From NCBI GenBank assembly GCA_041879355.1, contig CP089922.1, forward strand, positions 462,172-526,171: 64,000 bases of DNA. Reading direction: 5' to 3'. A program made the position numbers and the translations under genes. Under the pieces are notes generated by a model that had not been told where the DNA came from, did no database searches, and saw nothing but the letters and a program-made list of their open reading frames with translations. Origin of the DNA: Cyanobacteria bacterium LVE1205-1 (GTDB taxonomy: Bacteria; Cyanobacteriota; Cyanobacteriia; CAIUCS01). Position 1 is the stretch's first letter. The number at the start of each line of letters is the position of its first letter. Below, piece after piece: positions 1,781 through 53,768 of this stretch.

Positions 1781-2652
1781 ATGCCCTATTCTTCAGTTCG
1801 TGGAGTTGAACACTATTATCAATGGATTACCCAGTCCCAACTAAATGCCTCAGGGGAACACCATCCGACTGGCAAACCAATATTGGTTTTTGTACATGGG
1901 TGGGCTGGTTCTGCTCGCTACTGGGAAAGTACGGCGATCGCCCTTACCCATGAATTTGATTGTCTACTCTATGACCTAAGGGGGTTTGGACGCACCCGAT
2001 TACCCAAATCTCCCCATAGGGATCTTGACTATGAACTCCACACCTATGCCGATGACCTAGCTCTTTTACTAGACACCTTAGGGATTAACCAAATAACCAT
2101 CAATGCCCATTCTACTGGAGCATCCATTGCGGTTCTTTTTTAAACCGTTATTCCCATCGGGTAAACCGGGCAATTCTAACCTGTAATGGCATATTCCCTT
2201 ATGACCCAAAAGCCTTTTCTGCTTTCCACAAATTTGGCGGCTATGTGGTGAAATTTCGTCCCCATTGGCTATTAACTATTCCGTTTGTTGAACGATTATT
2301 TATGGCGCGGTTTCTCCACCAACCAATTCCACTTTCTCAACAACGAAATTTTTTAGAAGATTTTTTAATGGCTGATGATAATGCTGCTCTGGGTACAATT
2401 TATACTGCTGTAAGTCAAAGAGCAGCAGAAACAATGCCCCAAGAATTTACCCAAATTTCCATGCCTACCCTGTTGGTATGTGGAGAGTATGACCAGATTA
2501 TCCCAACTCCAATGGGACAACAGGCTGCCAACCTTAACCCAAACATCCAGTTTCAGGTATTGACAAAAACAGGTCATTTCCCCATGTTAGAAGACCCAGA
2601 AACCTACCTGCAACTCATTGATTCTTTTTTATCCCACCCAATACCAACTTGA
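1781..2652 (+). CDS. alpha/beta-fold hydrolase, split into two ORFs (1781..2143, 2245..2652) by an apparent frameshift at a T6 run near 2138
   Basis: N-terminal part has the HGWAGS nucleophile-elbow region, C-terminal part ends with the usual GHFPMLEDPE histidine region; the two halves lie in different frames. Confidence 0.7.
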
Positions 2653-2702: not shown

Positions 2703-2828
2703 GAGAGTATCCCAATGTTGCAAGTTTGCCCTCATCCCCTAGCCCCTTCTTCCTTTTTGGGAGAAGGAGAACCGGATTTCAAGTCCCTCTCTCGTTTAGG
2801 GTGAGGGCTGTAAAATTGGGATGCACCC
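2703..2828. repeat. Dispersed short repeat family A, copy 1 (two conserved arms separated by a 64-bp insertion)
   Basis: Arms GAGAGTATCCCAATGTTGCAAGTTTGCCCTCA and GGGTGAGGGCTGTAAAATTGGGATGCACCC recur at 10233..10280 and 53738..53768; GCCCTCA/TGAGGGC is an inverted repeat. Confidence 0.7.
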
Positions 2829-10175: not shown

Positions 10176-10232
10176 ATTTGGAATGGAGAAAGAGCTGATA
10201 ATAATGAGTCTCAATGGCAGTTGATGATTGAC

Positions 10233-10280
10233 GAGAGTATCCCCATGTTGTACATTTGCCCTCAAAATTGGGATGCACCC
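10233..10280. repeat. Dispersed short repeat family A, compact 48-bp copy
   Basis: GAGAGTATCCCCATGTTGTACATTTGCCCTCAAAATTGGGATGCACCC; both arms of copy 1 are contiguous here. Confidence 0.7.
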
Positions 10281-10297
10281 TGATTGACAGAGGTCTG

Positions 10298-12823: not shown

Positions 12824-13264
12824 GGGAATGAGGAAGAAAAGGGGTAAATCATTAAAGTCAGTGGGGAAGATGGGTATAAGGATGGGATTAAACGTGATTC
12901 TCCATCCTTATATCCATACTTCCCCTATCAATCCATGGTGAATGATTGCCAAACTAAAATAATGGGTAATTAAATGATACCAATCTTAGTGAACCCAGTC
13001 TTTACCGATTAGAAAAACTCCCAAGGGATTGTTCATTCCCTCCTGGGAGTGGGAACCATAGGGTTAGGTTCCCAGTACTTTTCTTTTGGGGGATGTCACC
13101 ACTCTCCTTCGTCCTTGATTGTATGTCCCCATAACTGGTACTAGACTCCATGGAAGGAAATAGTAGGATACACCTGGTGGTTCGTTGCCAACCTACGCCT
13201 TGGAAATGAAGAGTATCAGGATATAATCAAGAAAAAGAGTTCAAACCATTATCGGTACTCAGAG

Positions 13265-18561: not shown

Positions 18562-18634
18562 TGGAGGTTAGCGGACTCGAACCGCTGACATCCTGCTTGC
18601 AAAGCAGGCGCTCTACCAACTGAGCTAAACCCCC
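18562..18634 (-). tRNA. tRNA-Ala (anticodon TGC)
   Basis: Reverse complement folds as a 73-nt cloverleaf: acceptor GGGGGTT with G3:U70, D-arm AGCTCAGTTGGTAGAGC, anticodon loop TTTGCAA, T-arm GGTTCGAGTCC. Confidence 0.95.
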
Positions 18635-18804: not shown

Positions 18805-19554
18805 ATGGTTATCGTAGCCAGCTTTTACAAATTTTTCCCCTTTCCTGACTCCATTCACCTCAGATCCGCTTGGCTCGCTTACTGTCAGGTTCAACAGATT
18901 CGGGGTACCATCCTCATGGCTCCGGAGGGGATTAATGCCACTATTTCAGGAAGTCGTGATGCAATCAATCAGGTGCTTCAGTATATTTGCAGCCATCCCG
19001 GTTTAAGTACATTAAAGCATCAGGAAAGTGTTTGGAATGTTCATCCCTTTGATCAGTTAAAGGTTAAGTTTAAACAAGAAATTGTTACCTTAGGAATGCC
19101 CACAGTTGATCCTAGTCAAGGTACCGGTGAGTTTGTTCATCCTTCAGATTGGAATGCTATTTTGACTGATCCAACTGTCACCGTGGTTGATACTCGTAAT
19201 ATCCATGAAGTGGAAATGGGTACTTTTTTTGGGGCAATCAATCCACAAATGTTTTGTTTTCGTCAGTTTCCCTATTATGCTAAGCAACAGTTAATGCCGT
19301 TGCAGTCAAAAAAAGTTGCTATGTTTTGTACCGGAGGAATCCGATGTGAAAAAGCCTCGTCCTATTTATTAAAGGAAGGTTTTAAACAGGTGTATCAATT
19401 AGACGGTGGCATTATTCATTATTTACAAACAGTCTCAAAATCAGACAGTCTTTGGCACGGGGATTGTTTCGTTTTCGACCAGCGCAATCATCTTAATCTT
19501 GAGCATAGGTCAACTTGGTTTGGGGTAAGTAGCCTTCCAAATCTGGTTAACTGA
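18805..19554 (+). CDS. trhO: Rhodanese-domain protein, tRNA uridine(34) hydroxylase TrhO-like (UPF0176)
   Basis: N-terminal VASFYKF, rhodanese active-site CTGGIRCEK. Confidence 0.7.
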   Translation: MVIVASFYKFFPFPDSIHLRSAWLAYCQVQQIRGTILMAPEGINATISGSRDAINQVLQYICSHPGLSTLKHQESVWNVHPFDQLKVKFKQEIVTLGMPTVDPSQGTGEFVHPSDWNAILTDPTVTVVDTRNIHEVEMGTFFGAINPQMFCFRQFPYYAKQQLMPLQSKKVAMFCTGGIRCEKASSYLLKEGFKQVYQLDGGIIHYLQTVSKSDSLWHGDCFVFDQRNHLNLEHRSTWFGVSSLPNLVN

Positions 19555-19606
19555 CAAAAGTTGTACGCCCTCACCCCTAACCCCTCTCCCAGGGGGCGAG
19601 GGTGGA
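19546..19606. repeat. Repeat family B, truncated copy (left half of the element at 40930..41077)
   Basis: CTGACAAAAGTTGTACGCCCTCACCCCTAACCCCTCTCCCAGGGGGCGAGGG nearly identical to 40933..40984. Confidence 0.75.
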
Positions 19607-29602: not shown

Positions 29603-29927
29603 CCCACTTTCCCTAGGGTTGAGTCCCAAAGCCCTTGAAGTCCATCTCCAGTGTAGAGGGGGACTTCATAAGGCTATTTGATAAATTCTATAGAATGGTC
29701 TAGTTTCTAAGGTTACATTACTTTTCATTTTTGTTACCCTTGTTCTAGACATATTCATTGGGGTGCATCTTGCCTTTCCATCTCTCACCCTAAATCCAGC
29801 TCCGACTCCCCCACTTTGGAAGAAGGGGTTGGGGGATGAGGGCAAATTTACAAAACGGGGATATACTCTATTCAATCTTGCTTCACGTGATCTACTGACA
29901 AATATCACAGTGAAAAAACAACCCATT

Positions 29928-40891: not shown

Positions 40892-40929
40892 AGATTGCAC
40901 GAAATCGTTGCTAATACCTGTGAACCTGG

Positions 40930-41077
40930 TTGACTGACAAAAGTTGTACGCCCTCACCCCCAACCCCTCTCCCAGGGGGCGAGGGGAGCCGATCCACCCC
41001 TCCCGGTTCCCTCTCCCATCGGGAGAGGGCTAGGGTGAGGGCTTTCGGGGTTTTGGCTGAGAAGTTTTGTCAGTCAA
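40930..41077. mobile_element. MITE-like element (repeat family B, full copy) with terminal inverted repeats
   Basis: TTGACTGACAAAAG at left, TTTTGTCAGTCAA at right; internal palindromes CCCTCTCCCAGGGGGCGAGGG and CCCTCTCCCATCGGGAGAGGG; left half repeated at 19546..19606. Confidence 0.7.
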
Positions 41078-41140
41078 TCAGGCTTCTCACCAATCCCCAC
41101 TCGCCAGGGTACTAATTCAAACCTAGTCAACAAATCCAAT

Positions 41141-53609: not shown

Positions 53610-53737
53610 ATTTTGGTGATGGCAATGAGAGACTACATTCGCTTAGGTGATTAATGATTTTTACCATGGACGGATTTTCTTTTGTGAAACGTGTCTACTG
53701 TTGATTTCAGTCCTTGATCCCAAGGGATTAGGGAATG

Positions 53738-53768
53738 AGGGTGAGGGCTGCAAAATTGGGATGCACCC
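53738..53768. repeat. Dispersed short repeat family A, 3' arm copy
   Basis: GGGTGAGGGCTGCAAAATTGGGATGCACCC, one mismatch to 2799..2828. Confidence 0.7.

What the first reader, a model, noticed from the sequence alone, without database searches (positions are those of the whole stretch)
2703..2828. Dispersed repeat family A with a hairpin core, three same-orientation copies in intergenic spacers
A 48-bp unit (compact copy at 10233..10280) recurs with a 64-bp insertion at 2703..2828 and as a 3' arm at 53738..53768. All copies are on the plus strand in short spacers, and the GCCCTCA/TGAGGGC inverted repeat could form a stem. It could be a small MITE, a regulatory RNA motif or a recombination site.
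Basis: seen in the sequence. Interest (0 to 1): 0.45.

Follow-up and report, generated by a model that had tools for sequence, protein, structure and literature searches.

The report
Decayed ISKra4-type MITE copies, cyanobacterium
The repeat is real, but it is an ordinary kind of selfish DNA: four worn-down copies of a miniature transposon that borrows the enzyme of an ISKra4-family insertion sequence, and whose middle carries a G/C-rich "BoxC/triplex-motif" palindrome whose means of spread was unknown.

Summary
The three copies exist as described and are far beyond chance. The description needs three corrections. A fourth copy lies on the minus strand (29761-29869). The extra segment in the long copy is 78 nt, not 64. 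The 48-bp copy is a deletion derivative, not the basic unit.

The outer arms are terminal inverted repeats (consensus GGGWGCATCCCAWTTTTGCA). They match the ends of full-length ISKra4-family insertion sequences of filamentous cyanobacteria, including annotated ISMic1 and ISOni1 and a 1350-bp element in L032. Short elements with these ends are flanked by 8-bp target-site duplications: 39 of 53 versus 0 of 53 in a control. The 48-bp window copy has a perfect one, TGATTGAC.

Family A is therefore a MITE, about 140 bp when intact, presumably moved in trans by an ISKra4/ISMich2-type transposase. No such gene lies in the window.

The core is an inverted pair of BoxC/PIT/TMECO-like intrastrand-triplex motifs. 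The same type of core sits in a second MITE family in the window that has different ends. Window copies are partly deleted relics. I found no support for an RNA motif or a recombination site.

Verdict: new member of a known kind, modest interest. The MITE-to-triplex-motif link is the only part worth following.

The parts
2703..2828 (+). Copy c1: 126-bp MITE copy lacking about 15 nt of the core. No recognisable target-site duplication.
2703..2724 (+). c1 5' terminal inverted repeat, GAGAGTATCCCAATGTTGCAAG. 18 of 22 positions match the IS end GGGTGCATCCCAATTTTGCAAA.
2728..2808 (+). c1 core. Outer stem GCCCTCATCCC / AGGGTGAGGGC, with inner hairpin 1 intact (CCCCTTCTTCC..GGGAGAAGG). Inner hairpin 2 has lost its 3' arm. 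This is the remnant of an inverted pair of BoxC/triplex-type motifs.
2809..2828 (+). c1 3' terminal inverted repeat, TGTAAAATTGGGATGCACCC.
10233..10280 (+). Copy c2: 48-bp deletion derivative, made of both terminal repeats plus GCCCTCA. It lies between the stop of a CysQ-like gene (10298) and the start of cobS (10175), both on the minus strand.
10225..10232 (.). Left target-site duplication of c2, TGATTGAC.
   Evidence: read directly
10281..10288 (.). Right target-site duplication of c2, TGATTGAC.
   Evidence: read directly
29761..29869 (-). About 109 bp on the minus strand, with part of the core and of the 3' repeat deleted. Flanks GATTGAAT / CAATGAAT match at 6 of 8 positions. The orthologous copies in L120 and L125 match at 7 of 8.
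53711..53768 (+). Copy c4: 5'-truncated copy. 53738-53768 is certain (core outer arm plus 3' repeat). 53711-53737 is a probable degenerate second hairpin.
40923..41082 (+). Family B, a separate MITE-like element with different ends (CCTGRTTGACTGACAAAAG). It carries the same type of core, here with two motifs that fit the published TM stem pattern: 41009-41041 on the plus strand exactly, and 40951-40985 on the minus strand once the second loop is allowed more than 3 nt.
19540..19602 (+). 5' fragment of family B, with one motif of the TM pattern on the minus strand (19568-19602, found only with the relaxed second loop).

Best explanation
[quoted passage not shown] An intact copy is about 140 bp.

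Its roughly 20-bp terminal inverted repeats are the ends recognised by DDE transposases of the ISKra4 family. This is the ISMich2-like group of cyanobacteria: Mutator-superfamily enzymes, made from two reading frames joined by a -1 frameshift. A transposase supplied in trans by a full-length IS elsewhere in the genome binds the two ends and inserts the element into AT-rich intergenic 8-mers. Staggered cuts then leave an 8-bp, sometimes 9-bp, duplication.

The interior codes for nothing. It is an inverted pair of G/C-rich BoxC/PIT/TMECO-like motifs. As single-stranded DNA it folds into a long stem with two inner hairpins.

This interior is a palindrome full of short direct repeats, so it is lost piecemeal by replication slippage. 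That gives the 126-, 109- and 48-bp copies and the half copy seen here.

Shown: the repeats, the identity of the ends with IS ends, the duplications, the deletion series, the spread across cyanobacteria, and the absence of a transposase gene in the window.

Inferred: mobilisation in trans, the slippage mechanism, and that the window copies have no function for the host.
For: 1. The repeats are non-random.

Most are from filamentous cyanobacteria. In these the 3' end is paired with GGGWGCATCCCAWTTTTGCAAA 50-290 bp upstream.

3. Flanking 8-mers match at 7 or more of 8 positions in 39 of 53 distinct short elements, against 0 of 53 for a control offset by 12 nt. The duplications are 73% A+T, against 55% in the flanks. 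Window copy c2 has a perfect TGATTGAC.

4. Full-length partners exist.
- L032 283-1632 is 1350 bp with 36-bp perfect terminal repeats. Its two ORFs are in a -1 frame relation, with AAAAAG just before the first stop. It matches NCBIfam NF033572, ISKra4 family transposase, at 284 bits against a cutoff of 205, E 2e-84.
- L086 holds a second full-length transposase gene with the same right end. L019 holds a 707-bp internally deleted copy with duplication GTCTTTAT.
- RefSeq-annotated ISKra4-like ISMic1 (NC_019761.1, 1773 bp, duplication ATACAGAA), ISOni1 (NC_019731.1) and a Nostoc flagelliforme ISKra4 element are each bracketed by the same repeat, with at most 4 mismatches in 22.

5. Guerillot et al. 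2014 (PMC3942029) define the ISMich2 group by exactly this two-ORF, -1 frameshift arrangement.

6. The same subfamily occurs in freshwater metagenomes, with the same 5' arm GAGAGTATCCCAATGTTGCA and the same core. It spans intact 140-141-bp copies and many different internal deletions, several with 7/8 to 9/9 duplications.

7. The intact copy L112 folds at -45.5 kcal/mol, z -8.4. c1 gives z -3.7. c2 and c3 are not significant.

8. Copies lie in both orientations relative to their neighbouring genes.
Against: - No ISKra4 transposase gene lies in the 64-kb window or on the related metagenome contigs. Whether the source genome has one could not be checked.
- c1 has no target-site duplication, and c3 has only a decayed one.
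- No empty orthologous site was found. The one close relative at the c2 site (L129) has the same junction but a different interior, which is unexplained.
- L032, L131 and L132 themselves lack a duplication.
- Transposition has not been demonstrated for any member.
Confidence: 0.88

Rival explanations
1. Nested element. The 48-bp form, made of two terminal repeats and a short linker, is the basic MITE. The G/C-rich triplex-motif core is a separate small mobile or recombining module that entered it.
For: - 'Empty' elements of about 49 bp exist in Microcoleus and relatives (L029, L093, L106, L108).
- The same ends enclose quite unrelated interiors in different genomes.
- The same type of core occurs between different ends: family B in the window, and the Egbenema variant L016.

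At the level of the family's origin, some exchange of modules therefore did happen.
Against: - For the window copies, c2 retains GCCCTCA, which is one arm of the core's outer stem without its partner.
- The subfamily shows a graded series of different deletions, several of them between the direct repeats GGGAGAAGG and GGGAGAGGG.
- No solo core outside a MITE scaffold is present in the window.
- No duplication or other insertion signature flanks the 78-nt segment.
Confidence: 0.15
2. A structured regulatory RNA, or a hairpin terminator or stabiliser, kept by selection in intergenic spacers.
For: - Intergenic location. c1 sits between two convergent reading frames.
- A stable predicted hairpin.
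- MITEs elsewhere are known to act as RNA stabilisers or cleavage sites (review PMC3184786).
Against: - No Rfam family reaches threshold. Only weak generic hairpin matches to miRNA precursors appear.
- No terminator-like T run is found.
- Copies lie in both orientations relative to their neighbours.
- c2 and c3 no longer fold better than shuffled sequence.
- Target-site duplications and IS-type ends explain the distribution without any selected function.
Confidence: 0.04
3. A REP/REPIN-type element spread by a RAYT (IS200/IS605-like) transposase, or a site for a site-specific recombinase.
For: - The element is a palindromic extragenic repeat.
- In Microcoleus the interior carried by the same ends begins with GTAG followed by a long palindrome, which looks like a REPIN.
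Against: - The window family has no GTAG or CGTC tag.
- It has 8-bp target duplications, which REP elements do not make.
- Its ends equal those of a DDE-type IS.
- No recombinase or RAYT gene lies beside any copy.
Confidence: 0.02

Closest known systems
Type I (IS-derived) bacterial MITEs, for example Nezha of Anabaena/Nostoc (paired with ISNpu3) and the MaeMITEs of Microcystis
   Same: Small and non-coding. Terminal inverted repeats equal to those of a full-length IS. Fixed-length target duplication. Strongly folding interior. Intergenic. Many copies in cyanobacteria (review PMC3184786).
   Different: The partner here is an ISKra4-family (ISMich2-like) IS with an 8-bp duplication, not ISNpu3. 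I found no paper in the searchable library that links ISKra4 to a cyanobacterial MITE. I could not compare with the Nezha or MaeMITE sequences themselves.
ISKra4 family, ISMich2 group of insertion sequences (p-MULT 4 transposases; Guerillot et al. 2014, PMC3942029). Annotated examples are ISMic1 and ISOni1.
   Same: The same terminal repeat, GGGWGCATCCCAWTTTTGCAAA, and the same 8-bp duplication (ISMic1 has ATACAGAA). The partner transposase is encoded in two frames with a -1 shift.
   Different: The window elements have no transposase and are 48-126 bp. Their 5' repeat is a diverged version, GAGAGTATCCC..., shared by the whole subfamily.
BoxC / PIT / TMECO intrastrand-triplex motif (E. coli, Synechocystis, many cyanobacteria; Holder et al. 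2015, PMC4666352)
   Same: In intact relatives the 3' half of the core is CCCTCTCCC-N5-GGGAGAGGG-ATTTA-GGGTGAGGG. All three 9-nt stems are identical to E. coli TMECO type A. The motif occurs as inverted pairs, as at five E. coli sites.
   Different: - The second loop is 5 nt rather than 3 in family A. Family B at 41009-41041 fits the published pattern exactly.
- The pair faces the other way round than the E. coli hrpB-mrcB pair.
- Here the motif sits inside an element with IS-type ends and target duplications, whereas Holder et al. found no link to mobile elements in E. coli.
- In window copies c1 to c4 the motif is broken.

Membership tests
MITE (IS-derived, type I) | Terminal inverted repeats | tested here: met
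   The 5' arm GAGAGTATCCCMATGTTG is the imperfect reverse complement of the 3' arm CAAAATTGGGATGCACCC. The same pair is seen in more than 50 elements from other genomes.
MITE (IS-derived, type I) | Target-site duplication of fixed length | tested here: met
   39 of 53 elements match at 7 or more of 8 positions, against 0 of 53 in the control. c2 is 8/8 with TGATTGAC. c3 is 6/8, and 7/8 in its orthologues. c1 has none.
MITE (IS-derived, type I) | Small, non-coding, multi-copy | tested here: met
   48-141 bp. Four copies in 64 kb. 14 metagenome contigs, 8 of them from a single sample, carry the exact 27-nt arm-plus-core pattern. No genome-wide count for the source genome was possible.
MITE (IS-derived, type I) | Ends shared with an autonomous IS | tested here: met
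   L032, L086, and L130 (ISMic1), L131 (ISOni1) and L132.
MITE (IS-derived, type I) | Filled versus empty orthologous sites | tested here: inconclusive
   L120 and L125 are orthologous to c3 and are also filled. L129, at the c2 site, has the same junction but a different interior. More distant relatives are not syntenic.
ISKra4 family / ISMich2 group (as the mobilising partner) | DDE transposase matching the ISKra4 family model | tested here: met
   NF033572 at 284 bits against a cutoff of 205 for L032. RefSeq annotation confirms it for L130-L132.
ISKra4 family / ISMich2 group (as the mobilising partner) | Transposase in two ORFs joined by a -1 frameshift (Guerillot 2014) | tested here: met
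   L032 ORFs 380-625 and 622-1512 are in a -1 relation, with AAAAAG before the stop. The ISMic1 and ISOni1 CDS lengths of 1079 and 1067 nt are not multiples of 3.
ISKra4 family / ISMich2 group (as the mobilising partner) | Partner IS present in the same genome as the MITE copies | not testable with these tools
   None in the window or on the related metagenome contigs. The 2.48-Mb source contig could not be scanned.
BoxC / PIT / TMECO triplex motif | Pattern CCCTCNCCC N3-6 GGGNGAGGG N3 GGGNGAGGG | tested here: not met
   No family A copy in the window matches. Intact relatives match only when the second loop is allowed 5 nt. Family B at 41009-41041 matches exactly.
BoxC / PIT / TMECO triplex motif | Formation of an intrastrand triple helix | not testable with these tools
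   Needs CD, UV melting or DMS footprinting, as in Holder et al. 2015.
REP / REPIN (RAYT-dependent) | GTAG or CGTC tag next to the palindrome, no target duplication, RAYT gene in the genome | tested here: not met
   No tag in the window family, and 8-bp duplications are present.
Known structured RNA family (Rfam 15) | Match at the gathering score | tested here: not met
   Only a tRNA in the whole window. Nothing at E<=1 on c1. Only sub-threshold hairpin matches on intact L112.

The most novel reading that the evidence does not exclude
In cyanobacteria the BoxC/PIT/TMECO intrastrand-triplex motif is not a free-standing genomic signal. It is a cargo module spread by hitch-hiking inside MITEs of at least two or three unrelated end types: the ISKra4-type ends of family A, the Egbenema variant, and family B.

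That would supply the missing dispersal mechanism for a motif known since the 1990s. Holder et al. 2015 could not link it to any mobile element. Its three 9-nt stems are identical between E. coli and cyanobacteria, which hints at a shared structural or protein-binding constraint.
Probability: 0.35. Interest if true: 0.55.

Novelty: new member of a known kind. Interest (0 to 1): 0.33.

Why it matters
For this window it settles an annotation question. The repeats are transposon relics, not regulatory sites.

More widely, three points follow.
- A very widespread cyanobacterial MITE superfamily gets a concrete partner, ISKra4/ISMich2-type IS, with defined ends, an 8-bp duplication and a preference for AT-rich targets.
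- One pair of transposon ends can enclose many unrelated hairpin interiors.
- The long-known but unexplained BoxC/triplex motif is now linked to a transposable vehicle. That link is directly testable by genome-wide counts and transposition assays.

Tried and rejected
- **Rfam.** I ran it at gathering threshold on the window and at E<=1 on c1 and on an intact relative. No family matched.
- **Promoter and terminator scan around c1.** Nothing above shuffles.
- **Empty-site search for c2.** I searched homologues of the neighbouring CysQ-like protein. Relatives at 71-72% identity are not syntenic, and the 99% relative gives only 94 nt of downstream flank (66 nt beyond the junction), with an unexplained different interior. 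The cobS product is not on record.
- **Supplementary tables of Guerillot 2014.** No ISMich2 end sequences are held as text.
- **Literature searches.** Searches for ISKra4 plus MITE, for nested or small dispersed repeats in cyanobacteria, and for BoxC plus MITE found no paper describing this element. Searching papers for the sequence itself led to the triplex-motif paper.
- **Genome-wide copy count in the source genome.** Not possible.
- **Rejected: chance similarity**.
- **Rejected: REP/REPIN.** The elements have duplications and no GTAG tag.
- **Rejected: 'insertion of 64 bp'.** The segment is 78 nt and the direction is most likely deletion.

Full report

Yes, with corrections. The 48-nt unit is at 10233-10280. 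Its first 32 nt recur at 2703-2734 with 88% identity (D15). Its last 17 nt, AAAATTGGGATGCACCC, recur exactly at 2812-2828 and 53752-53768. That is three hits where 0.35 are expected, and none of 100 shuffles reaches three.

The segment that the long copy has and the short one lacks is 78 nt (2735-2812), not 64.

All four copies are intergenic:
- c1 lies between the end of a split alpha/beta-hydrolase frame and a convergent ORF.
- c2 lies between a CysQ-like gene and cobS.
- c3 lies between an S1-domain gene and a DUF4349 gene.
- c4 lies between a PmbA/TldD-like gene and a NurA gene.

Their orientation relative to the neighbouring genes is mixed. The window is cyanobacterial. GCGATCGC is everywhere. 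The nearest named homologues of the CysQ-like protein are cyanobacterial, at only about 55% identity. The source is a 2.48-Mb contig of a JGI sample.

**2. What are the outer arms?**

The two ends are imperfect inverted repeats of each other. Some hits are the chance matches expected for an 18-mer in 596 Gb. Most are in filamentous cyanobacteria, including Microcoleus, Coleofasciculaceae, Allocoleopsis, Hormoscilla, Leptolyngbyaceae, Nostoc and Scytonema. In those, the 3' end is paired with GGGWGCATCCCAWTTTTGCAAA 50-290 bp upstream.

The 8 bases outside the two ends match at 7 or more of 8 positions in 39 of 53 distinct elements. A control offset by 12 nt gives 0 of 53. The duplicated 8-mers are 73% A+T against 55% in the flanks. 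Window copy c2 is flanked by a perfect TGATTGAC. c3 has 6 of 8, and 7 of 8 in the orthologous copies of related strains, L120 and L125. c1 has none.

**3. Which transposase?**

L032 contains a 1350-bp element bounded by 36-bp perfect copies of the same repeat. It has two ORFs in a -1 frame relation, with AAAAAG just before the first stop. The larger ORF matches NCBIfam NF033572, 'ISKra4 family transposase', at 284 bits against a cutoff of 205. L086 holds a second full-length transposase gene with the same right end. L019 holds a 707-bp internally deleted one with duplication GTCTTTAT.

There is independent confirmation. Three RefSeq-annotated ISKra4-family genes on complete cyanobacterial plasmids are each bracketed by the same repeat, with at most 4 mismatches in 22:
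- ISMic1 of Allocoleopsis franciscana PCC 7113
- ISOni1 of Oscillatoria nigro-viridis PCC 7112
- an element of Nostoc flagelliforme

ISMic1 has the 8-bp duplication ATACAGAA.

Guerillot et al. 2014 (PMC3942029) describe the ISMich2 group of ISKra4-type (p-MULT 4, Mutator-like) elements as plain IS whose transposase is made from two ORFs by a -1 frameshift. That fits. From memory of the ISfinder family table, not checked here, this group is listed with 1250-1400 bp, 8-bp duplications and ends starting GGG.

No such transposase gene is in the window or on the related metagenome contigs.

**4. What is the interior, and which copy is ancestral?**

A metagenome scan with a 27-nt pattern spanning the 5' arm and the start of the core found 14 contigs of the same subfamily. 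Intact copies are 140-141 bp (L112, L121; L042 from the genome scan is also intact). The others carry different internal deletions, several between the direct repeats GGGAGAAGG and GGGAGAGGG.

The window copies fit into this series:
- c1 lacks about 15 nt.
- c3 lacks more, including part of the 3' repeat.
- c4 is a 3' half.
- c2 has lost 78 nt but keeps GCCCTCA, one arm of the core's outer stem, now without its partner.

The intact element folds as single-stranded DNA into a long stem with two inner hairpins, at -45.5 kcal/mol and z -8.4. c1 still folds (z -3.7). c2 and c3 do not beat shuffles. The 48-bp copy is therefore best read as a deletion derivative.

The 5' arm variant GAGAGTATCCC is shared by the whole subfamily. 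The asymmetry of the two ends is therefore inherited, not decay.

**5. The core is a known motif.**

Searching papers for the sequence led to Holder et al. 2015 (PMC4666352). They describe the BoxC/PIT/'TMECO' intrastrand-triplex motif, CCCTCNCCC-N3-6-GGGNGAGGG-N3-GGGNGAGGG. It is known in E. coli and Synechocystis and is very abundant in cyanobacteria.

The 3' half of the intact core is CCCTCTCCC-GCTCT-GGGAGAGGG-ATTTA-GGGTGAGGG. This has the three stems of E. coli type A with a 5-nt second loop. The 5' half is an inverted, more A/T-containing version. The core is thus an inverted pair of such motifs. It faces the opposite way from the E. coli hrpB-mrcB pair.

In the window, motifs fitting the published stem pattern occur only in a second repeat family, B (40923-41082, with a fragment at 19540-19602). 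Of these, 41009-41041 fits the pattern exactly. The other two (40951-40985 and 19568-19602) fit only when the second loop is allowed more than 3 nt. Family B has different ends, CCTGRTTGACTGACAAAAG. An Egbenema element (L016) carries the same core between a co-varied end variant with an 8-bp duplication.

Holder et al. reported no association of the motif with mobile elements in E. coli. Here it is inside a MITE.

**6. Mechanism, committed.**

An ISKra4/ISMich2-type DDE transposase encoded elsewhere binds the roughly 20-bp ends and integrates the element into AT-rich 8-mers, producing the duplication. This step is inferred from the identity of the ends and from the duplications. The palindromic, repeat-rich interior then erodes by slippage. 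This step is inferred from the deletion series. The window copies are relics. c2 is possibly the youngest insertion, since its duplication is perfect. c3 predates the split from strains that are 96-98% identical to the window.

**7. Rivals.**

*Nested insertion.* At the level of the family's origin this is not excluded. 'Empty' forms of about 49 bp exist, and unrelated interiors occur between the same ends: a GTAG-tagged palindrome in Microcoleus, heptamer arrays, and other hairpins. It is unlikely for c2 itself.

*RNA motif or terminator.* It is disfavoured by mixed orientation, decay, the absence of any Rfam match and the absence of a T run.

*REP/REPIN or recombination site.* It is contradicted by the duplications and the IS-type ends.

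**8. Unexplained.**

A Logan contig from a strain whose CysQ-like protein is 99% identical has the very same junction as c2, GTCAATCA|GGGTGCATCCCAATT. Further in, its interior is different.

**9. Verdict.**

This is a real repeat family, correctly suspected to be a MITE. It is a new member of a known kind. The interest is modest, and lies mainly in the link between MITEs and the BoxC/triplex motif.

Noticed in passing
window 40923-41082 and 19540-19602: A second MITE-like family (B) with different terminal repeats, CCTGRTTGACTGACAAAAG. It carries an inverted pair of BoxC/TMECO-type triplex motifs (41009-41041 fits the published pattern exactly; 40951-40985 fits with a longer second loop). 19540-19602 is a 5' fragment. 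Its partner IS and target duplication were not determined.
   Followed up: partly
window 1781-2143 and 2245-2652: An alpha/beta-hydrolase gene appears split into two reading frames. Pfam PF00561 matches the N-terminal part in one and the C-terminal part in the other. It lies just upstream of copy c1. This could be a frameshifted pseudogene or a sequencing error.
   Followed up: no
L129 1119-1184 versus window 10233-10288: A closely related strain has the identical junction of flank and element end at the c2 site, but a different element interior. The contig is too short to resolve this.
   Followed up: partly
L001, L024, L030, L073, L083 (Microcoleus); L034, L035, L047, L069, L090, L103; L029, L093, L106, L108: The same ISKra4-type ends enclose unrelated interiors in other cyanobacteria. 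These are a GTAG-tagged long palindrome that looks like a REPIN, arrays of heptamer tandem repeats, and 'empty' forms of about 49 bp.
   Followed up: partly
L016 5094-5250 (Egbenema sp., NZ_CP182236.1): The same triplex-motif core sits between a co-varied end variant, GGGAGCATGTCAC... / ...GTGACATGCTCCC, with the 8-bp duplication TCATCACT. This suggests a sister IS with changed end specificity.
   Followed up: no
L060 2632-2690: Three tandem copies of the 20-nt right end, CTGCAAAATTGGGATGCACC, at one element end in an Oscillatoriales MAG.
   Followed up: no
L133 (E. coli K-12 164547-164631) versus L112 2597-2690: The three 9-nt stems of the triplex motif, CCCTCTCCC / GGGAGAGGG / GGGTGAGGG, are identical in E. 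coli BoxC and in the cyanobacterial MITE core. The two motifs of a pair face opposite ways in the two organisms.
   Followed up: partly
window 12863-12924: A 23-nt inverted repeat with a 16-nt spacer, GGGGAAGATGGGTATAAGGATGG / CCATCCTTATATCCATACTTCCC, unrelated to family A.
   Followed up: no
window 18562-18634 (minus strand): A tRNA gene, the only Rfam match in the window at gathering threshold.
   Followed up: no
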